From positions 32,001 through 96,000 of IMG/VR virus record IMGVR_UViG_3300018495_000076: a stretch of DNA of 64,000 bases; one strand, given 5' to 3'. Positions 14,158-38,420 of the stretch are shown here, piece after piece; the first letter of the stretch is position 1, and each line of letters opens with the position of its first letter. The notes beneath the pieces were generated by a model that was given only the letters and a program-made list of their open reading frames with translations, was not told where the DNA came from and made no database searches. Made by a program: the position numbers and the translations under genes. Origin of the DNA: a virus (taxonomy: Duplodnaviria; Caudoviricetes).

Positions 14158-14565
14158 TTACCAAATATCTCTCATTGCTTTAATCTGTTCCTCGGTAAAG
14201 CACCTACGAACATCATTGTATTCCTTGACGACAGCATTATATGTGTTGATAAGATTTGTCATATCCTCAACACAGTGGATTTCATATCCGAACTCATGCA
14301 TAAAATCATCTATACTTCCGACATCGTACTTTTCCAAGCATGAGAGTATGTCGTACTCAGTGGGTTTTATGTTTGCTTCCGTGTTATGTCGGCTATCATA
14401 AAAATTCCCAGTCATTTGACCTCTCTGTGTCTTGATGATAAATGTGTACATATTATGGTTGCCTTTGTCCCAAGTTACTTTGACTTTACCAATATATGTG
14501 ATACTCATTGTTGCAGGGCATGTGTTCAAAAATTCTCTTGCTTGGTTTTGATAATCAGTTGTCAT
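14158..14565 (-). CDS. hypothetical phage protein
   Basis: ORF with SD. Confidence 0.75.
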   Translation of the reverse strand: MTTDYQNQAREFLNTCPATMSITYIGKVKVTWDKGNHNMYTFIIKTQRGQMTGNFYDSRHNTEANIKPTEYDILSCLEKYDVGSIDDFMHEFGYEIHCVEDMTNLINTYNAVVKEYNDVRRCFTEEQIKAMRDIW

Positions 14566-14738
14566 TTTTTAATTCCTCCCGTTTTGTAACAAGTTTTGCT
14601 CTCAATTTAGTGAGCAATTGAATTGCGTCACATTGCTCATCCAATGTGTCGATATCATCCATTTCGATGATTGACAGCAATGCGTTATCAAGCAACTTGA
14701 TGTTTTTGTTCGTTGTCATGGTTGAGCTCCTCGCTTTC

Positions 14739-17937: not shown

Positions 17938-18201
17938 TTAGTCTTCGTTGTGTTCTCTTTCTTGCAGTTCGTCCAAGATGTCGAGTGCCTTGTTACGGCA
18001 TTCACCTTTGCCTACCATAACAAGTTCTTTTTTTGCAGACTCATAAAAGCCTGCACGAGCAAGGTCATACCATGCATGACCCCATGTTCTGTGGGTGTTG
18101 CAAATGTCCCACAAGCAGTCCTTGAGGTGTTCTGTACCCCAATAACCACTGTCGGCCTTTCCCTTCACGTAACCTTTTACTCTTGCGGAAAGTCTTGCCA
18201 T
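17938..18201 (-). CDS. hypothetical early protein
   Basis: AAGGAGGT SD. Confidence 0.75.
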   Translation of the reverse strand: MARLSARVKGYVKGKADSGYWGTEHLKDCLWDICNTHRTWGHAWYDLARAGFYESAKKELVMVGKGECRNKALDILDELQEREHNED

Positions 18202-18352
18202 ATATATACCTCCTTGCCACGACCTTAACTGCCCAATCGAGTGGGTTCAGTGGTTTATGTGGCTGTGCTTTATATGACTTGTGTGCTTGTTTAAGCCCAC
18301 AATGAAGCCCTTGACCATTTGCACAGTCAAGAGCTCGATGTAGGTTTAAGCA

Positions 18353-18652
18353 TTACATGACGCGGCAAAGTGCATTGACACCGTTGTAAATCAAGCCGTC
18401 AATGCCGAGAAAATACTGTGTACCGTTCTTGTAGATGATGAACTTGTCAGGCTGACAAACAGAACCAAAGCCACACCATTCAATGCGACAATGTCTGCTT
18501 TTTGCAAGCTTGCACACTTTTGCGAACAATTCGTTGCATACAGCTTCTTGGGTACGCCAATTGCCATACATACGAACTTCATACAGTTCCTTGCAAAGTT
18601 CAATCATTTCGGTCGTTTTGTTGCCCATAAGAGCACGGATAGTTTTGTACAT
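18353..18652 (-). CDS. hypothetical early protein
   Basis: GGAGGT SD. Confidence 0.75.
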   Translation of the reverse strand: MYKTIRALMGNKTTEMIELCKELYEVRMYGNWRTQEAVCNELFAKVCKLAKSRHCRIEWCGFGSVCQPDKFIIYKNGTQYFLGIDGLIYNGVNALCRVM

Positions 18653-18693
18653 AAGTACCTCCGACAGTAGGTTGTCAGCCGTAAATTTTCACT

Positions 18694-18743
18694 GACAGTT
18701 TCGCTCTTGCTTGTCAGCGTCGGACTTTTACCGACGGACTGTC
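18694..18743 (-). ncRNA. type III hammerhead-like ribozyme with variant core CUGACAA
   Basis: GACAG-UC / CGUCGG UAAAAGU CCGACG / CUGACAA / GC AAGA GC / GAAA CUGUC. Confidence 0.65.
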
Positions 18744-18785
18744 GTCATAAAACGGCTACACAATTGTAGCCGTTGTAAGTTATGC

Positions 18786-19010
18786 TCAATTGATGACTTC
18801 GACCTTTTTGACGATTGTGTAAAAGCTTTCGTCATAATCAGCCGAACTAACATTACGGACAGTTCCGTAAGGGGTTGTAAATCTAAACCCTGTTGTGGTC
18901 AATTCAAACAGCCCCGTAACTCCGTGCTCATTGTTGGGTTTTGTGTTACCATACATGACAAACATTTTGCCATCGTAATTTTTGCGAACCAAATACCAAT
19001 AAAGTTTCAT
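18786..19010 (-). CDS. hypothetical early protein
   Basis: ORF with SD. Confidence 0.7.
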   Translation of the reverse strand: MKLYWYLVRKNYDGKMFVMYGNTKPNNEHGVTGLFELTTTGFRFTTPYGTVRNVSSADYDESFYTIVKKVEVIN

Positions 19011-19142
19011 AAATGACCTTTCTGCCCAAATGGACAATGCTCAATTTTTCTGCACGAGAGCTGGTGCAAATATTTAATGCCGTATGAGGGCTGGGATAGG
19101 GTTTGATTAACGGCTCAAACCCTTCAGAAAGCCGGTTACACA

Positions 19143-19310
19143 TTACACTTCCGTAACTTCAAAATCCATCGGCTCATCCACAATGCTTTGATGCGCCAAC
19201 GCCCATGCAATCAGTTTTTCGACTGCCTCGTCTTCGTCATGTGCCTCAACTACATGTGTGGTGCATTCGGGCATAGGTGCAAAACTCCAATAACCTCTAA
19301 ATCTTTTCAT
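19143..19310 (-). CDS. hypothetical early protein
   Basis: overlapping stop/start with the upstream gene, SD. Confidence 0.7.
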   Translation of the reverse strand: MKRFRGYWSFAPMPECTTHVVEAHDEDEAVEKLIAWALAHQSIVDEPMDFEVTEV

Positions 19311-19675
19311 GCTTGTACCTCCTTCAATTCCTTCTTTGCTTGTGCATATCTTGCTTCCCACTCTTTGCAGTAAGCAATTGTGTCTCGCAAATCTTGTGCC
19401 AATTCTGCGAGTTCGTCCGTGAAGTTTTCAGGTTCCCAGATTTCGGTGTCGAGCAATTTGCTCAGATCCCTATGTATACGAACACGAGTATCACGAGAAT
19501 TCATGATTGCCACGGTGTAGGCACACTTGAGGTGCATGAGTTCCTTTTCACGGCGGAGTTTGCCGTTGGGTGTGTCTTCAAGCACGAGTGCTTTGATGGC
19601 TTCACTTGCATAGAAGTAACATGTCGAAACTTCCAATTCCTCTGCCTTGCGAATTGCGTTCATAAATCTTTCCAT
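19307..19675 (-). CDS. hypothetical early protein
   Basis: AAGGAGG SD. Confidence 0.8.
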   Translation of the reverse strand: MERFMNAIRKAEELEVSTCYFYASEAIKALVLEDTPNGKLRREKELMHLKCAYTVAIMNSRDTRVRIHRDLSKLLDTEIWEPENFTDELAELAQDLRDTIAYCKEWEARYAQAKKELKEVQA

Positions 19676-19821
19676 AACTTCCTCCTTCTGCCCGGCTCTT
19701 TCGAGCGTATGGAATTGGGCTGTAAAATTTTAATTGCCTTGCGGCTGGTAGAGCCTCGTTTTCGGTCGTAGGCTCTTAGTACCGAGTGTTTTACGTGTTA
19801 TCGCCTCACTGCCAAGGGTTA

Positions 19822-20469
19822 TTAGCCGAGCATATCCTCGGTCAAGCCATAGGTTTCAACTGCCTTTTTCCACTTAGGGGACTTCAGCAGACCCTCTTTT
19901 GCCTTGGGCATGAAGTCTTTGAGTTCCTCAGCAGACTTGCCCAGAACAGTGAATGTGGTTGCCGCTCCTCCGTTAGCAATGCTGTATGCACTTGCTGCAC
20001 GGTTCAGCACGGACATTTTCATTTTGTCGAGTGCCTTCTGGGCGGAGGGAGTGAGTTCCACCTTGGTTGCTTTCACTTCCTTGACCTCGGTTGCCGCCTT
20101 TGTGGGTGCGTCATTTCCTTTGCCCTTACGAGCATTGGACTTCTTGCTTCCCTTTTCGGACTTGCCATTTCCCTTGCTGTCGGTCTTAGGCTTGCTTTCC
20201 TTCGCCTGCTTGCTTGCTTCCTCAGGCTTGGGCTTACGGTTTGCCTTGTACTCATCTTCGCTCACGGAAGTAATTGCCTGAGCAACGAACTTCTTGGCAA
20301 GAGCAACCTTAGGGAACTCGGCCTTGAATCCGCCTACACCCTTGAGCACTGTGCCACCAAGGCTTTCAACGATGGCTTTGTTGCGTACATACAGGTCATG
20401 TGCCACATAACGATCTGCGGTTACGATGGTCTTGTTCTGTGTGAAGTTGATAGGTGTAAAGTTTGTCAT
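19822..20469 (-). CDS. Lys/Ala-rich basic early protein
   Basis: SD; strongly biased codons; low-complexity basic linker. Confidence 0.85.
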   Translation of the reverse strand: MTNFTPINFTQNKTIVTADRYVAHDLYVRNKAIVESLGGTVLKGVGGFKAEFPKVALAKKFVAQAITSVSEDEYKANRKPKPEEASKQAKESKPKTDSKGNGKSEKGSKKSNARKGKGNDAPTKAATEVKEVKATKVELTPSAQKALDKMKMSVLNRAASAYSIANGGAATTFTVLGKSAEELKDFMPKAKEGLLKSPKWKKAVETYGLTEDMLG

Positions 20470-20545
20470 AATTAAACCTCCTTTGTGCCTTGTGCGCATA
20501 GGCTATGACATTGCGTGTACCTATGCAAGGCTATAATATTTTATT

Positions 20546-20612
20546 AGCCGTTAGCCGTGCTTATGCACGTTGCCCACCCTACACTATCGTGGAAGTCGGC
20601 TTGTTGTAGGGT
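20546..20612 (-). ncRNA. HDV-like ribozyme
   Basis: P1 ACCCUAC/GUAGGGU, P2 AGCCG/CGGCU, P3 ACU/AGU, L3 UCCACGAU, P1.1 CC/GG, P4 CGUGC-AUAA-GCACG, J4/2 GCUAA. Confidence 0.85.
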
Positions 20613-20613
20613 T

Positions 20614-20640
20614 AGGCAGTTTATACTCATACCCAGGAGT
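20614..20640 (-). ncRNA. 3'-UTR H-type pseudoknot, AUAAACUGC family copy 1
   Basis: ACUC-CUGGGUAU-GAGU-AUAAACU-GCCU. Confidence 0.65.
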
Positions 20641-20645
20641 GTGTG

Positions 20646-20933
20646 TTAACCAAGACAACGAACCATGCGTTTGAAGATGTCAATGTCCTTGAAGGACTTG
20701 ATGTAGCCACTATGGATGTAAGTATCGTTATCACGAATGGATACCCATAACACACCGTTTTTCATTCTGTCTACTACCACGATGATCTTGCGCTCGTCAT
20801 CTTGGCGCACACCAAAGAAGTCGAACCATAGACACTCTCCTTCACGCTTGAGTGTGCGTCTATCGTATGTGAAGTACCTATCCACATAAGATACGAGTTT
20901 ATTGGTGTTTGTTCTGGAAACTTTGAAAAACAT
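20646..20933 (-). CDS. hypothetical early protein
   Basis: AAGGAG SD. Confidence 0.75.
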   Translation of the reverse strand: MFFKVSRTNTNKLVSYVDRYFTYDRRTLKREGECLWFDFFGVRQDDERKIIVVVDRMKNGVLWVSIRDNDTYIHSGYIKSFKDIDIFKRMVRCLG

Positions 20934-20966
20934 AATCATTCTCCTTTTGCCTATTGGCGTTAATGT

Positions 20967-21013
20967 GGCAATTCGCATGCACCCTCGCCTCGTGAAGGCT
21001 TGCCCATGAGGGT
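20967..21013 (-). ncRNA. minimal HDV-like ribozyme lacking P4
   Basis: P1 ACCCUC/GAGGGU, P2 GGCAA/UUGCC, P3 GCC/GGC, L3 UUCACGA, J4/2 GCGAA. Confidence 0.8.
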
Positions 21014-21055
21014 ATCCATTTTTACGAGTTGGAATTTCAAGCTATCTCGTGTGTG

Positions 21056-21304
21056 CTATAAGTTAGCGCATAATTGGCAAAGCAACTTGTTGACATAGCC
21101 TTGTGGGTACAAGGTTAATGTGTATTTGTCCCTACAAGCACCAATCAGTTCCTCGACATCCATGTCGTCGAATGCCCACACAATCTCGTGATTGCGTGTA
21201 ATGATACCGTTAATTTCGTCGTATGCGTCTACCACATATGCGTCACCAAAGCACCAATATCTTGTGCCCCAATTGTAGTTGACTTTTGCTATTTGCTTGT
21301 ACAT
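21056..21304 (-). CDS. hypothetical early protein
   Basis: AAGGAG SD. Confidence 0.75.
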   Translation of the reverse strand: MYKQIAKVNYNWGTRYWCFGDAYVVDAYDEINGIITRNHEIVWAFDDMDVEELIGACRDKYTLTLYPQGYVNKLLCQLCANL

Positions 21305-21324
21305 AAATCATCTCTCCTTTGCAA

Positions 21325-21377
21325 TCCGTTTCGGCTCATGCCATCATCGGCTCATGGACTTTTACCACGAGGACGGA
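21325..21377 (-). ncRNA. type III hammerhead ribozyme (core CCGAUGA)
   Basis: UCCG-UC / CUCGUGG UAAAAGU CCAUGAG / CCGAUGA-U / GGC AUGA GCC / GAAA CGGA. Confidence 0.8.
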
Positions 21378-21404
21378 AGGCAGTTTATGCTCGTGCCTGG
21401 GAGC
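21378..21404 (-). ncRNA. 3'-UTR H-type pseudoknot, AUAAACUGC family copy 2
   Basis: GCUC-CCAGGCAC-GAGC-AUAAACU-GCCU. Confidence 0.7.
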
Positions 21405-21411
21405 GTAGGTG

Positions 21412-21729
21412 TTAGTGTGACACATGTGTGATAGTGTCGTCGGTAACATCGAATGTGTACTGCGTATCAAAGTACACGGTTACGAGTGTGCCGTTGTCAA
21501 GATTGGTGGTGTAGTCCCAAATGTGTCCATCAGCAGTGATTATTGTGCCGTCTTCGTAGTATGTGCCCTCTTGAGTGCGTTCGCCCATAAGCACACACCA
21601 ACAGTTCCAATCAGCATAGATGGGATTGTGGCGAGTGTTTTTGCATACCACCTCGATGGTGCTTACGAGCATCCATGCGAGGACGAGCACGAATACGAGT
21701 GTGAATGCGTTGCTGATAAATTTTTTCAT
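21412..21729 (-). CDS. membrane-anchored hypothetical protein
   Basis: N-terminal hydrophobic helix FTLVFVLVLAWMLV. Confidence 0.8.
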   Translation of the reverse strand: MKKFISNAFTLVFVLVLAWMLVSTIEVVCKNTRHNPIYADWNCWCVLMGERTQEGTYYEDGTIITADGHIWDYTTNLDNGTLVTVYFDTQYTFDVTDDTITHVSH

Positions 21730-21782
21730 GGTTTTTCTCCTTTGCCCACTCACGAAATGGGACTTGTGAATTTTGTTTTAGG

Positions 21783-21850
21783 CGTGACTTCGGATGCATA
21801 AGCACCCAAACGCACTTGGCTTAACACGGTTTAGCCTCCCCAAGTGGAGG
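21783..21850 (-). ncRNA. pistol ribozyme
   Basis: P1 CCUCC-ACUUGG-GGAGG, CUAAAC, P2 CGUG, UUAAG, pseudoknot CCAAGU, GCG, P3 UUUGGGUGC-UUAU-GCAUCCGAA, G/U cleavage site, CACG. Confidence 0.9.
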
Positions 21851-21877
21851 GAGCAGTTTATGCACTTGCTCAGGTGC
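21851..21877 (-). ncRNA. 3'-UTR H-type pseudoknot, AUAAACUGC family copy 3
   Basis: GCAC-CUGAGCAA-GUGC-AUAAACU-GCUC. Confidence 0.7.
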
Positions 21878-21884
21878 ATGGGTG

Positions 21885-22409
21885 TTAGCGAACACTCTCC
21901 CAGTATGTCCAACCTTCAGAGCCAATCTGTGCAGACATGTTGTGCTTGCGAAGGACGGAAGCAACTGCCTTATTGGCTTCTCTGCCTTTGCCTGCATAGG
22001 TATCAATCCCAATCTGCCACTCAGCCTTGGTAGGCTTGGGATCACCCTTGCCAGCGGGTCTGCGAGCACGAAGCTTTGCCTTAGGCTTTTCTGCTTTGGG
22101 TTGTTCATCGGTTTCACTCTTGGGTGCCTCTGTGTGCATAGGGTAAAGCAATCCATCACTGTCGAAATGCCCAATGGCAGTCCACTGGAAGGTCTTCTCC
22201 TTCGTGCATTCGAGAGCGCAAAGCGTGTTCTCGTACTTTACGAGATTCCACAAAGCAACCTTGTTGGCATCCTTGCCACCTTTGATGGTGCTTGTTATGC
22301 ACACACATGTCTGGGTGTAGTATGCTTCGTTTGTGAAGCGAACTGCACCTGCTTTTTCTGCGGCTGTGTATGCGCCTGCGAGTGTCTTGTAAGTCTTGTT
22401 GGTTTTCAT
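21885..22409 (-). CDS. basic early protein; C-terminal domain paralogous to 22573..23085
   Basis: AGKGREANK...WTYWESVR. Confidence 0.85.
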   Translation of the reverse strand: MKTNKTYKTLAGAYTAAEKAGAVRFTNEAYYTQTCVCITSTIKGGKDANKVALWNLVKYENTLCALECTKEKTFQWTAIGHFDSDGLLYPMHTEAPKSETDEQPKAEKPKAKLRARRPAGKGDPKPTKAEWQIGIDTYAGKGREANKAVASVLRKHNMSAQIGSEGWTYWESVR

Positions 22410-22473
22410 AGTACCTCCTTTGCCCATATGGGCGTGCTCGGTTTATGCACATGAACTGGTGCGTGAATTTTGT

Positions 22474-22543
22474 GTCCCGCTCTGCCTTGACAAGACGAAG
22501 TCTTGCCTCACGGACTTGCGACCGTCGTTGGTGGCATTAAGAC
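22474..22543 (-). ncRNA. twister ribozyme (type P1, with P5)
   Basis: GUCU-UAA-UGCC-AC...ACGG-UCGCAAGU-CCGU...P5...AA-GGCA-GAGCG-GGAC; both pseudoknots (AC/GU, CGC/GCG) are complementary. Confidence 0.88.
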
Positions 22544-22572
22544 GCCCCCACCCGAAGGTGAGGGCATGTGTG

Positions 22573-23085
22573 TTAGCGAATGGACTTCCAATAGTCCCAC
22601 TCTGCACCGTTGGGTTCAATGCCGAACTCGCGGATGATTGCGGCTGCCTGCTTGTTCGCGCTCTTGCCCTTGCCTGCGAGCTTGTCGAGTTTTTTCAGCA
22701 ACTTGGCATTGCCCTTGCCGTTTGTGCGCTTGGGTGCGTTCACGGGCATGAGCACGCAGCCGTCGCCGTTAGCCGTGCCTTGAATCGTGTATTCCTTGCC
22801 GTCCATCAAGTCCTCGTACTCACGAGCGGGATCGTATGCCTCGGCGCGCTCGGACTTGGGCACATACGCTGCGTGAGCCTCGGCATAGTCTGCTCTGAAC
22901 TTTTTTGCTACGGATTCTGCCGTTTTGACGGAGTCAAATGTTACGGCTACGAAGCCTTCGGCAGTTTTGGCGATTTCGGTGTTGTGGTCTTGGGCGAGCT
23001 GCACGAGCGCCTTGTATGCGCCGTACGGCAGGTACGCGGTTGCGGTAAGGGTGTTCTGGGTTCTCTTAATCAAATTCTTAGACAT
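22573..23085 (-). CDS. first gene of leftward early operon, basic protein
   Basis: AAGGAGG SD; AGKGKSANK...WDYWKSIR C-terminus. Confidence 0.85.
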   Translation of the reverse strand: MSKNLIKRTQNTLTATAYLPYGAYKALVQLAQDHNTEIAKTAEGFVAVTFDSVKTAESVAKKFRADYAEAHAAYVPKSERAEAYDPAREYEDLMDGKEYTIQGTANGDGCVLMPVNAPKRTNGKGNAKLLKKLDKLAGKGKSANKQAAAIIREFGIEPNGAEWDYWKSIR

Positions 23086-37508: not shown

Positions 37509-37583
37509 GGTCGGTTAGTGAAGTGGTTAACTCACAAGATTTTCATTCTTGTAGCACGAGTTCGAATCTCGTACCGACTACCA
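37509..37583 (+). tRNA. tRNA-Glu(TTC)
   Basis: cloverleaf; anticodon arm CAAGA-TTTTCAT-TCTTG; encoded CCA. Confidence 0.85.
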
Positions 37584-37586
37584 CAT

Positions 37587-37662
37587 GACACCATAGCTCA
37601 GTTGGTAGAGCAGCAGACTGTTAATCTGCGGGTCGTAGGTTCAAGCCCTACTGGTGTCGCCA
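37587..37662 (+). tRNA. tRNA-Asn(GTT)
   Basis: cloverleaf; loop CTGTTAA; CCA. Confidence 0.93.
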
Positions 37663-37666
37663 TTAT

Positions 37667-37742
37667 GGGGGTGTAGCTCAGTTGGGAGAGCACCTGCCCT
37701 GCAAGCAGGGGGTCAAGGGTTCGAATCCCTTCATCTCCACCA
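37667..37742 (+). tRNA. tRNA-Ala(TGC)
   Basis: cloverleaf; loop CCTGCAA; G3-U70; CCA. Confidence 0.93.
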
Positions 37743-37882
37743 TCGGGTAGATAAGATAACAAAATGCGCCACTACCTACAACATATTGGACAAGACGGTA
37801 GCCATCGTACTTAGTGCGGGGTCGTTAGTCGGTATGGTATCAAATTGGCAGATGTGTGGTTGACGGTACCTAACCGTTATTT

Positions 37883-37959
37883 GGCCCGGTAGTTCAGTTG
37901 GTTAGAACGCTAGCCTGTCACGCTAGAGGTCGTGGGTTCGAGTCCCATCCGGGTCGCCA
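37883..37959 (+). tRNA. tRNA-Asp(GTC)
   Basis: cloverleaf; loop CTGTCAC; CCA. Confidence 0.93.
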
Positions 37960-38011
37960 AGCAGTTTTTAGTAGGTTTCTGCTGCCACAGCTAAATAAAC
38001 TTACATTTTAT

Positions 38012-38096
38012 GGGAGAGTAGTAAATCGGCAACTACACGGGACTGTAAATCCCGCACCTTCGGGTACAGTGGGGTCGGCACCCACCTCTCCCACCA
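38012..38096 (+). tRNA. tRNA-Tyr(GTA)
   Basis: loop CTGTAAA, long variable arm, atypical T-loop; CCA. Confidence 0.85.
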
Positions 38097-38100
38097 ACAA

Positions 38101-38200
38101 AAGACACATACAGCAACTTTATCTGGTTGTCAAGCGGTTAAGACATTTCTCTCGAAAAGAAATAACACGGGTTCAAATCCCGTCCTACATAATGTGTCTT
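38101..38200 (+). ncRNA. tRNA-like RNA: D, anticodon (CGA) and T arms closed by a non-acceptor 9-bp stem (skipping-rope-like)
   Basis: AAGACACAT-ACAGCAA...ATGTGTCTT outer stem; no acceptor stem or CCA. Confidence 0.65.
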
Positions 38201-38207
38201 GTTTGAT

Positions 38208-38282
38208 GCTGGCGTAGCACAACGGTAGTGCCCCTCACTTGTAATGAGGATGTTGTAGGTTCGAATCCTATCGCCAGCTCCA
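38208..38282 (+). tRNA. tRNA-Thr(TGT)
   Basis: cloverleaf; loop CTTGTAA; CCA. Confidence 0.9.
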
Positions 38283-38288
38283 ATATAT

Positions 38289-38366
38289 TGCGGGGTAGAG
38301 CAGTCAGGTAGCTCGTTAGGCTCATAACCTAAAAGTCGGTGGTTCAAATCCACCCCTTCGCAACCA
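38289..38366 (+). tRNA. tRNA-Met(CAT), initiator-like body
   Basis: fMet-like D arm and T-loop; loop CTCATAA; one extra base on the 3' acceptor strand. Confidence 0.85.
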
Positions 38367-38372
38367 AACAGA

Positions 38373-38420
38373 ACCCGACACGCCTCTCAACGATGCGGAC
38401 CACGTCGGGTCGTTTTTTAT
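38373..38420 (+). terminator. hairpin with structured loop plus U-tract closing the tRNA cluster
   Basis: ACCCGAC...GTCGGGT followed by TTTTTT. Confidence 0.55.

What the first reader, a model, noticed from the sequence alone, without database searches (positions are those of the whole stretch)
19735..19818. Unassigned structured RNA in the ribozyme slot: candidate new self-cleaving motif A
This junction immediately follows five ribozyme-bearing junctions and has the same length and layout, but I cannot match it to hammerhead, twister, pistol, HDV, hatchet, twister-sister or hairpin consensus. The minus-strand sequence is CCUUGGCAGUGAGGCGAUAACACGUAAAACACUCGGUACUAAGAGCCUACGACCGAAAACGAGGCUCUACCAGCCGCAAGGC. 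It supports AGAGCCU/AGGCUCU, UCGGU/ACCGA (pseudoknotted with that stem), AGUG/CACU and a GCC-GCAA-GGC tetraloop. A ribozyme role is inferred from position only.
Basis: partly seen in the sequence, partly recalled or inferred. Interest (0 to 1): 0.82.

Follow-up and report, generated by a model that had tools for sequence, protein, structure and literature searches.

The report
Orphan structured RNA in ribozyme slot
A folded RNA element of about 60 bases that fits no known family sits, in two diverged copies, between genes of a gut phage exactly where neighbouring gene junctions carry self-cleaving ribozymes, so it may be a new RNA-cutting element, but nothing yet shows that it cuts.

Summary
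No Rfam family matches, even in a lax scan of 166 nt. The element occupies the same place as a pistol, a twister and an HDV-like ribozyme in junctions of one minus-strand operon of a 174.8-kb phage. Only 3 of the 5 preceding junctions have Rfam support.

New here: the core is probably the 3' ~60 nt (19786-19726), which folds far better than shuffles (z -4.5). The next junction (19135-19069) seems to hold a diverged second copy. All 12 of 12 pairs are kept and 5 changed on both sides. It shares a loop CCG facing an upstream CGG, a CCA and a GCC/GGC mini-hairpin. That likeness is suggestive, not proven (E 1.9 in 64 kb).

No other copy turned up in any collection open to me. Relatives carry a plain long hairpin at this junction.

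Self-cleavage is untested. I rate it the likeliest single mechanism (about 0.33). Rivals are cutting in trans (RNase P or another RNase), a regulatory switch, or a relic.

The parts
19726..19786 (-). Core of the motif (junction J6): upstream CGG, hairpin B, N-CCA, mini-hairpin C and the start of the A/U tail
   Evidence: The 58-nt fold has z -4.48, 0 of 200 shuffles. It is the part shared with the second copy.
19750..19776 (-). Hairpin B: 7-bp helix, bulged A, 2-bp inner helix, 8-nt loop (19759-19766)
   Evidence: Pairs listed. All 9 pairs are kept in the second copy and 5 changed on both sides.
19781..19785 (-). 5' strand of the pseudoknot (UCGGU) pairing with loop bases 19762-19766. Alternatively it pairs with 19742-19745 (helix P3) or 19747-19749.
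   Evidence: The duplex energy is -6.6 kcal/mol. The partners exclude one another.
19746..19749 (-). A-CCA directly after the 7-bp helix
   Evidence: Read. CCA lies within 6 nt after the stem in 31 of 584 comparable hairpins of the genome.
19736..19745 (-). Mini-hairpin C: GCC-GCAA-GGC
   Evidence: The stem is identical in the second copy, which has a different 7-nt loop. A relative reads GUAA in the loop (19741 G>A on the plus strand).
19785..19810 (-). Hairpin A (AGUG/CACU with inner GCG/CGU). It is absent from the second copy and is probably the junction's upstream hairpin, not part of the core.
19813..19817 (-). CCUUG, which can close the whole element by pairing with 19737-19741 (helix P1). 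This excludes hairpin C.
   Evidence: MFE of the isolated 84-90 nt is -24.9 kcal/mol.
19676..19735 (-). A/U-rich spacer, 5'-UTR hairpin (19690-19720) and Shine-Dalgarno (19681-19687) of the downstream gene. Junctions J1, J2 and J5 have the same layout.
19069..19135 (-). Probable second, diverged copy of the core (junction J7a). It has CGGC at 19131-19134, hairpin B at 19098-19123 with loop 19107-19114, CCA at 19092-19094 and hairpin C at 19079-19091.
   Evidence: It is the best non-self match of the core model R3 (12.1 bits; E 1.9 in 64 kb, 0.024 in 791 nt). It has the highest score of 583 other hairpins in the anchored test. Pairs are listed. The junction fold has z -3.19.
19822..20469 (-). 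Upstream gene, 215 aa, a conserved family of unknown function
   Evidence: 163 homologues, alignment A1, no PHROG or Pfam family.
19307..19675 (-). Downstream gene, 122 aa. Its stop overlaps the ATG of the next small gene (19143-19310).
20544..20612 (-). HDV-like ribozyme in the preceding junction (context, positive control)
   Evidence: Rfam RF02682 at 36.8 bits, E 7.7e-4. My descriptor recovers the double pseudoknot.
21783..21850 (-). Pistol ribozyme (context)
   Evidence: Rfam RF02679 at 38.5 bits, above its gathering score of 34.5.
22474..22543 (-). Twister type P1 ribozyme (context)
   Evidence: Rfam RF03160 at 33.2 bits, E 5.6e-4, below its gathering score of 67.2.

Best explanation
The element is a cis-acting module of the polycistronic minus-strand transcript of a compositionally distinct block of small ORFan genes.

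Its functional core is the 3' ~60 nt, not the whole 84 nt. The core has these parts:
- a 7-bp helix plus a 2-bp inner helix closed by an 8-nt loop (hairpin B);
- a loop CCG that can pair with a CGG a few bases upstream of the helix, giving an H-type pseudoknot;
- N-CCA directly after the helix;
- a 3-bp GCC/GGC mini-hairpin;
- an A/U-rich tail.

A diverged second copy occupies the next junction.

I read it as the junction's punctuation device, the place where the operon RNA is cut between two genes. The cut is most likely made by the RNA itself, as at the twister, pistol and HDV-like junctions of the same operon. That would leave the downstream message with its own 5' hairpin and ribosome-binding site.

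Shown: the sequence, the fold, the position, the absence from known families, and a second copy with compensatory changes.

Inferred: that it is transcribed as part of the operon RNA, that it is cut, and that the cut is autocatalytic. The cleavage site is unknown.
For: Position. It fills the same slot and has the same downstream layout as three junctions with Rfam-supported self-cleavers in one operon. No sigma-70-like promoter or intrinsic terminator was found at the junction. Only 4 promoter-like sites were found in 6.6 kb, against 10.5 expected.

Structure. The core z is -4.48, 0 of 200 shuffles.

Second copy. It is the best non-self hit of a model built from J6 alone. All 12 of 12 pairs are kept and 5 changed on both sides. 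Unpaired columns are more alike (20 of 28) than paired ones (14 of 24). None of 582 other genomic hairpins of the same class reaches its likeness score. A G/C-rich loop-to-5'-flank pairing at the same loop position occurs in only 5 of 584 such hairpins, these two included.

Relatives. One relative (X8) keeps the motif with 1 change in 84 nt, and both fold models tolerate that change. In another relative (X10) the replaced stretch ends at 19732, next to the motif's 3' edge at 19735. That fits an exchangeable module.

Precedent. Pistol, hatchet and twister-sister were found by searching for conserved RNAs near ribozyme-associated genes (passages read in PMC6154101 and PMC4604425).
Against: There is no evidence of cleavage of any kind.

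No copy was found outside this phage lineage:
- 0 real hits in four pattern scans;
- 0 hits of models R1 and R3 in the 6-7 related phage records each was run on;
- no BLAST or tblastn match in 50,697 phage records.

The likeness to the second copy is not significant by Infernal's own E-value: 1.9 in 64 kb. With the longer model R2 it ranks 4th, below two chance hits inside coding sequence. It is also not significant by sequence alone: 447 of 5000 shuffles score as well.

X8's near-identity extends into the flanking downstream gene, so it shows no selection on the RNA itself.

All 6 of 6 relatives' loci that hold the 3' end of the upstream gene carry a plain long hairpin there instead.

Two of the three neighbouring ribozyme hits lie below Rfam's gathering scores. 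The two hammerhead-like junctions have altered cores, so the operon may also hold inactive relics.
Confidence: 0.33

Rival explanations
1. A site cut in trans by host RNase P. Hairpin B with its 3' N-CCA mimics a tRNA acceptor stem. In the pseudoknotted fold the 7-bp helix and the 4-5-bp loop helix could stack to about the length of a tRNA acceptor/T arm. RNase P would then cut at the 5' base of hairpin B.
For: In J6 a 7-bp helix is followed by A-CCA. The second copy also has CCA within 3 nt of the helix. CCA lies that close to the stem in 31 of 584 comparable hairpins. The phage encodes at least 16 tRNAs, and 6 of the 7 in the window have CCA encoded. So CCA-reading RNase P processing is in use. 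That RNase P cuts non-tRNA phage RNAs such as the C4 RNA of P1/P7 is recalled, not checked here.
Against: No tRNA, tmRNA or tRNA-like family matches. The 8-nt loop is not a T-loop. In the second copy the spacing between stem and CCA differs. In the best nested fold of the core the ACC of ACCA pairs with GGU. The CCA was noticed after the fact.
Confidence: 0.15
2. A structure recognised or blocked by another RNase (RNase III, Y, J or E type). It would be a processing site or an end-protecting structure for the flanking messages, like the RNase III hairpins between T7 early genes (recalled).
For: At this same junction, relatives carry a long imperfect hairpin flanked by CUUAAAC words (6 of 6 loci). 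This phage has one of that type at 18295-18350. So non-ribozyme hairpins can fill the slot. In its extended fold the element is a long interrupted helix in both copies.
Against: The longest uninterrupted helix is 7-9 bp, which is short for RNase III. The conserved loop, CCA and mini-hairpin would not be needed for a plain duplex.
Confidence: 0.2
3. A regulatory switch or a protein-binding operator. Two mutually exclusive folds exist: pseudoknot plus hairpin C, or closing helix P1 plus P3. The 5' strand of P1 lies at or just after the upstream stop codon, so a terminating ribosome would open it. This could couple translation of the upstream gene to the fate of the downstream message.
For: Both copies keep both alternatives at similar energies. 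J6: -24.9 against about -23.4 for the nested part, plus -6.6 for the pseudoknot duplex. J7a: -23.2 against -16.7 plus -7.6. P1 of the second copy includes the stop codon itself.
Against: Four short G/C triplets that can all pair with one another could give such alternatives by chance. No ligand or protein partner is indicated. No riboswitch family matches.
Confidence: 0.15
4. No present function: a chance fold, or the decayed remnant of a former junction module.
For: It is an orphan, with no family beyond this lineage. Neighbouring hammerhead-like modules have altered cores. The second-copy likeness is statistically weak by Infernal and Smith-Waterman.
Against: The core z is -4.48. Five double compensatory changes with no broken pair between the two copies, and better-kept unpaired bases, are not expected of decaying sequence.
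Confidence: 0.15

Closest known systems
Small self-cleaving ribozymes in phage intergenic regions (pistol RF02679, twister RF03160, HDV-like RF02682)
   Same: Same operon, same strand, same place between stop codon and the next gene's 5' hairpin and Shine-Dalgarno. Similar size (about 60 nt). Pseudoknot-capable.
   Different: No consensus of any class is met. Catalysis is untested. No wide family is known.
HDV-like ribozymes
   Same: A 7-bp P1-like helix encloses a short inner helix with an 8-nt loop and is followed by a small hairpin in the place of P4. The loop cytosines pair with guanines outside the hairpin (compare junction J5).
   Different: There is no P2: only 1 nt lies where its 5' strand should be. 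There are no G's after P1 for P1.1. There is no J4/2 cytosine context. The loop's partner lies upstream of P1, a different topology. The descriptor search found the control but no convincing fold here.
tRNA-like RNase P substrates (hairpin plus 3' NCCA; recalled examples: precursor of C4 RNA of phages P1/P7, 4.5S RNA)
   Same: A helix of acceptor-stem length followed by N-CCA. The phage's own tRNA genes encode CCA.
   Different: No T-loop and no tRNA-model match. The spacing is not conserved in the second copy.
RNase III processing hairpins between phage T7 early genes (recalled)
   Same: Intergenic structured punctuation of a polycistronic early transcript.
   Different: Helices are short and interrupted. 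Loop and linker bases are conserved.
RiboJ-type synthetic insulators (ribozyme followed by a hairpin before the ribosome-binding site; recalled)
   Same: The junction layout: module, spacer, hairpin, Shine-Dalgarno.
   Different: This one is natural, and the module is of unknown activity.

Membership tests
Hammerhead (types I-III and non-circular permutations) | Core blocks CUGAnGA, GAAA and a UH cleavage site around three stems | tested here: not met
   No CUGAnGA anywhere in the junction (read). Block definition taken from section 13 of PMC10085705. No Rfam hammerhead hit at E up to 10. RF00008 finds nothing in the genome.
HDV-like ribozymes | Nested double pseudoknot: P1 (6-7 bp), P2 between J1/2 and the 3' end, P3 with L3, P1.1, P4, and J4/2 with a catalytic C | tested here: not met
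   My descriptor script recovers the full fold in junction J5. For J6 it gives only 11 weak solutions, all with A/U-only P2 and a P1 that uses the downstream 5'-UTR hairpin. RF02682 hits J5 but not J6.
Twister, twister-sister, pistol, hatchet, hairpin ribozymes | Match to the family covariance model, which encodes the conserved core bases and stems | tested here: not met
   A lax cmscan of 166 nt gave 4 matches, none to these families, best E 0.37. Hatchet's conserved segments and its 5' P1 hairpin plus three-base linker were read in PMC6561176. Twister-sister's L1 and SL4 signatures were read in PMC5660989. Neither can be laid on the sequence. Permuted forms of these classes were not searched systematically.
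Self-cleaving ribozyme (any class) | Site-specific self-scission giving a 2',3'-cyclic phosphate and a 5'-OH | not testable with these tools
   No RNA run was listed for this stretch. The test needs in vitro transcription.
tRNA-like RNase P substrate | Acceptor-like helix with single-stranded 3' NCCA | tested here: inconclusive
   J6 has a 7-bp helix plus A-CCA. J7a has CCA 1-3 nt after the helix, depending on two extra pairs. ACC can also pair with GGU.
tRNA-like RNase P substrate | T-arm or T-loop mimic, or a match to tRNA/tmRNA models | tested here: not met
   ARAGORN finds 0 genes in 18900-19900. No tRNA-clan hit.
Intrinsic terminator | G+C-rich hairpin directly followed by a U run | tested here: not met
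   The consensus scan lists no minus-strand site in 19676-19821. The first U run lies 9 nt after hairpin C.
Motif A itself (J6 plus J7a as one family) | Hairpin B (7+2 bp, 8-nt loop with CCG at loop positions 2-4), upstream CGG, CCA, GCC/GGC mini-hairpin, in this order | tested here: inconclusive
   All features are present in both copies. The rank tests favour kinship. The E-value (1.9 in 64 kb) and the sequence-only test (447 of 5000) do not. The features were defined after seeing both copies.

The most novel reading that the evidence does not exclude
[quoted passage not shown] The class would be a pseudoknotted 9-bp hairpin with an 8-nt CCG loop, a CCA linker and a GCC/GGC mini-hairpin. A rumen or gut phage would use it alongside twister, pistol and HDV-like ribozymes to cut an early operon transcript into single messages.
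Probability: 0.28. Interest if true: 0.85.

Novelty: new variant of a known kind. Interest (0 to 1): 0.55.

Why it matters
Only about a dozen classes of natural self-cleaving ribozyme are known. The last bacterial and phage classes were found by exactly this guilt-by-association logic. A phage operon in which consecutive gene junctions carry different ribozymes is a natural test bed: an unassigned, structured, twice-occurring module in the same slot is a cheap and direct candidate, needing one transcription reaction per construct.

If it cleaves, it is a new catalytic fold and a new compact insulator part for synthetic operons. If RNase P or another host enzyme cuts it, it shows that phages mix autocatalytic and host-dependent punctuation within one transcript. 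If it does neither, it marks the limit of the slot argument.

Tried and rejected
Known families:
- Rfam at gathering score on the window.
- Rfam at E up to 10 on 14 kb and on 166 nt. Nothing for this element.
- Rfam on seven other junction stretches: 0 matches at E up to 5.
- HDV-like descriptor: control found, J6 not.
- Hammerhead, including permuted block orders: no CUGAnGA.
- Hatchet and twister-sister signatures from the papers: no fit.
- tRNA/tmRNA: none.
- Promoter or terminator at the junction: none.

Relatives by DNA:
- blastn of 19300-20650 and of 18640-19330 against 50,697 phage records: no match.
- tblastn of the 215-aa protein: no match.
- BLAST in 5 related phage records: only chance words of 24 nt or less.

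Relatives by flanking proteins:
- Viral contigs with single proteins: 0.
- With alignment A1: 1 locus in viral contigs and 8 in metagenome contigs. All are at 44-63 % identity and none holds the motif.

Pattern scans:
- Two loop-anchored patterns in viral contigs: 0 hits each.
- One pattern in genome contigs: 1 hit whose 'stems' are not complementary.
- A pattern shared by both copies in viral contigs: 6 hits, none with hairpin B.

Covariance models from J6:
- R1 on 7 records: self only.
- R3 on 5 related records and on the own genome with filters: self only.
- R2's best non-self hits at 14605-14686 and 14236-14281 lie inside coding ORFs and were dismissed.

Other attempts:
- J4 as a third copy: RNAalifold on J4 plus J6 gives no shared structure, so I dropped the idea.
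- Sequence-only Smith-Waterman of the two copies: not significant (447 of 5000).
- Sequencing runs: no RNA holder listed.
- Run X9: no contig laid.
- X10's 111 replacing letters were not shown, so it stays open whether they hold a diverged copy.
- Weinberg et al. 2015 is not held. What I say of its candidate motifs near ribozyme-associated genes is recalled. Supplements of the papers read were not seen.

Full report
WHERE IT IS. The window is bases 32001-96000 of a 174,761-bp virus record with direct terminal repeats, rated complete. The record encodes a large terminase and a portal protein and at least 16 tRNAs. Runs that hold the stretch are animal faeces and bovine gut metagenomes.

The finding lies in a run of small minus-strand genes between about 23,085 and 17,000. 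These genes start from an A/T-rich divergent region. The block at 18-23 kb has 44-54 % G+C, against 33-41 % around it. None of the 10 proteins I tested has a PHROG family or a Pfam hit above cut-off. In 6.6 kb the consensus scan finds 4 promoter-like sites where shuffles give 10.5, and no promoter or terminator at this junction. I therefore treat the block as one polycistronic unit. That is an inference.

THE OBSERVATION. The quoted RNA is there, base for base, on the minus strand from 19818 to 19735. It starts three bases after the double stop codon of a 215-aa ORF. The fold is better than chance, and most clearly so for the 3' part:
- 141 nt: z -1.85;
- 90 nt: z -2.61;
- 3' 58 nt: z -4.48, with 0 of 200 shuffles folding as well.

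Rfam gives nothing here. This holds at gathering score, at E up to 10 on 14 kb, and with the laxest filters on 166 nt, where the 4 matches all have E of 0.37 or worse and none is a ribozyme.

THE NEIGHBOURS. Listing all junctions shows a common layout: stop codon, often a short hairpin, a module, an A/U-rich spacer, a hairpin, Shine-Dalgarno, ATG. The modules are:
- J1 (22411-22572): twister type P1, 33.2 bits, E 5.6e-4, below gathering.
- J2: pistol, 38.5 bits, above gathering.
- J5: HDV-like, 36.8 bits, E 7.7e-4, below gathering. My descriptor script recovers its P1, P2, P3 and L3.
- J3 (about 21376-21326) and J8 (about 18743-18694): by eye these read as type III hammerheads that share a stem-I loop. 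One has C in place of core U4 and the other A in place of G8. Rfam finds neither.
- J4: no match and no significant fold.
- J9: a long hairpin flanked by CUUAAAC words.

So 'five ribozyme-bearing junctions' is 3 of 5 by Rfam, 1 more by eye, and 1 unsupported. Outside this block the genome has no ribozyme at gathering score.

REVISED ANATOMY. The isolated 84-90 nt fold as a three-way junction at -24.9 kcal/mol. A closing helix P1 joins 19813-19817 to 19737-19741. Hairpin A lies at 19785-19810. A third arm is made of P3 (19781-19784 with 19742-19745), an internal loop and hairpin B.

Together those two give a second conformer of similar energy.

The start of the junction aligns with the upstream hairpins of other junctions rather than with any ribozyme.

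A PROBABLE SECOND COPY. Searching the block with models made from J6 alone drew attention to the next junction, J7a. With the 88-nt model R2 it is only the 4th of 10 listed matches (5.7 bits). The two better non-self hits lie inside coding ORFs and are chance. With the 61-nt core model R3 it is the best non-self match in the 64-kb window, but at E 1.9. Within the 791 nt around the two junctions E is 0.024.

The alignment shows the following:
- The same hairpin B: 7 bp plus 2 bp with an 8-nt loop.
- All 12 of 12 modelled pairs are kept. 5 of the 9 pairs of hairpin B changed on both sides and none is broken (the alignment is fitted to the model).
- Unpaired columns are 20 of 28 identical, against 14 of 24 for paired ones.
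- Both loops have CCG at positions 2-4 and end in AA.
- Both have CGG 4-7 nt upstream of the helix. The fourth pseudoknot pair is U-A in one copy and C-G in the other.
- Both continue with CCA and then GCC, a loop of 4 or 7 nt, and GGC.
- Both end in a similar A/U tail (that pattern was written after seeing both).

Controls:
- Among 584 hairpins of the genome with an 8-nt loop and at least 9 pairs, J7a has the highest loop-plus-flank likeness to J6. The margin is small: 20 against 19, 19, 19.
- A G/C-rich pairing of at least 4 bp between loop positions 1-2 and the 5' flank occurs in 5 of 584, these two included.
- CCA within 6 nt after the stem occurs in 31 of 584.
- Plain Smith-Waterman likeness is not significant (447 of 5000 shuffles).

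I conclude that the two are probably diverged copies of one module. I also conclude that its core is 19786-19726, without hairpin A, which J7a lacks. This is suggestive, not proven.

RELATIVES. The upstream protein belongs to a well-conserved family of unknown function, with 163 hits down to 44 % identity. The downstream protein has 7 relatives. Four or five short contigs seem to hold both, judged by equal contig lengths. They lie in collections from which I could not fetch DNA.

The loci I could fetch are 1 viral and 8 metagenomic, at 44-63 % protein identity. In all 6 of 6 that include the gene's end, this junction holds a long hairpin flanked by CUUAAAC words, not this motif. Ribozymes occur upstream of the gene there: a type II hammerhead above gathering in one locus and an HDV-like hit below gathering in another.

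Laying contigs of four runs on 19560-19960 gave two informative relatives.
- X8: its 1391-nt contig spans the stretch with 18 substitutions and 1 insertion. Only one substitution lies in the 84-nt motif (19741). It turns the GCAA loop into GUAA, or a G-C pair of P1 into G-U. But 19560-19845 as a whole is nearly identical and the differences start at 19846. So this is mosaic ancestry, not proof of constraint.
- X10: its 3944-nt contig replaces 19732-19867 by 111 other letters. The left end of the replaced block lies 3 nt from the 3' edge of the motif. That fits an exchangeable module. The replacement is about 25 nt shorter, roughly the size of hairpin A. Its letters were not shown.

SEARCH FOR A WIDER FAMILY. 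Four pattern scans of whole collections found nothing real. Models R1 and R3 found nothing in the related phage records they were run on: R1 on six, R3 on five. BLAST and tblastn against 50,697 phage records found nothing. So 'orphan' means orphan among what was open to me.

WHAT IT IS NOT.
- Not a hammerhead in any block order: no CUGAnGA.
- Not HDV-like: no room for P2, no P1.1 partner, and the descriptor is negative while its control is positive.
- Not hatchet or twister-sister by their published conserved segments or by Rfam.
- Not a tRNA or tmRNA.
- Not a terminator.

MECHANISM. The strongest argument is positional. In one operon the same slot, with the same downstream spacer, hairpin and ribosome-binding site, is filled by three different self-cleavers. 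The layout looks like a natural version of a ribozyme-plus-hairpin insulator. A compact, pseudoknot-capable module of about 60 nt, with conserved loop and linker bases and present twice, is the kind of object that proved catalytic when pistol, hatchet and twister-sister were found near ribozyme-associated genes (passages read in PMC6154101 and PMC4604425).

I put self-cleavage at about 0.33, the highest of the single mechanisms but well short of likely. My recollection is that most other candidate motifs from that earlier search did not cleave, and the slot also accepts plain hairpins.

The rivals are:
- RNase P: helix plus N-CCA in both copies, in a phage whose tRNA genes encode CCA in 6 of 7 cases.
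- Another RNase, or an end-protecting structure.
- A translation-coupled switch between the two near-isoenergetic folds that both copies retain.
- A relic.

VERDICT. The element belongs to no known family. The ribozyme reading is neither supported nor refuted by what could be computed. It is a good, cheap bench candidate.

Noticed in passing
window 21326-21376 (-) and 18694-18743 (-): Two junction modules read by eye as type III hammerheads with the same stem-I loop (UAAAAGU) but altered cores. One has C for U4 plus an extra U before stem II. The other has A for G8 and a 2-bp stem II. Rfam finds neither, even at E up to 5-10. They may be active variants, a sub-family, or relics.
   Followed up: partly
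window about 21861, 21388, 20624 and 22446 (-): A short hairpin with an 8-nt loop followed by AUAAACUGC(C/U) stands directly upstream of the pistol, hammerhead-like and HDV-like modules. A variant (AUAAACCG) stands after the twister. The 9-mer occurs 5 times in the genome where about 1.3 are expected, 3 of them here. Its function is unknown.
   Followed up: partly
window 18295-18350 (-); L025-L031 just after the homologue of the 215-aa gene: A junction module made of a long imperfect hairpin flanked on both sides by (G)CUUAAAC. The flanks are conserved across relatives while the inner hairpin differs and stays paired. Only 2 contigs in viral contigs match the flank pattern. It could be an RNase III-type site or a terminator-like element.
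   Followed up: partly
window 20934-21055 (-): Junction J4 has no Rfam match and no significant fold (z +0.2). Its outline is loosely like J6: a hairpin ending in CGU plus an A run, a 6-bp helix, and a small hairpin before AUUAA. RNAalifold finds no shared structure.
   Followed up: partly
window 19695-19700 and 19771-19776 (-): AGAGCC occurs twice in junction J6. The 3' strand of hairpin B could therefore also pair with the copy inside the downstream 5'-UTR hairpin, a possible alternative pairing.
   Followed up: no
window 18000-23000: The ribozyme-bearing gene block is a G+C-rich island (44-54 %) in a genome of 33-41 % around it. All 10 of its proteins tested lack PHROG or Pfam families.
   Followed up: partly
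window 38374-38410 (+): Rfam abiF RNA hit (39.6 bits, gathering 37) directly after a cluster of seven tRNA genes.
   Followed up: no
window 37509-38362 (+); G000:C1:4361-8906 (-): At least 16 tRNA genes in two clusters. 6 of the 7 in the window have CCA encoded after the discriminator base.
   Followed up: partly
G000:C1:113270-130390 (+), outside the window: A single open reading frame of 5706 codons.
   Followed up: no
window 18745-18775 (-): In junction J8, a G+C-rich hairpin followed by UUUUAU precedes the hammerhead-like module. It looks like a terminator by eye but is not listed by the consensus scan.
   Followed up: no
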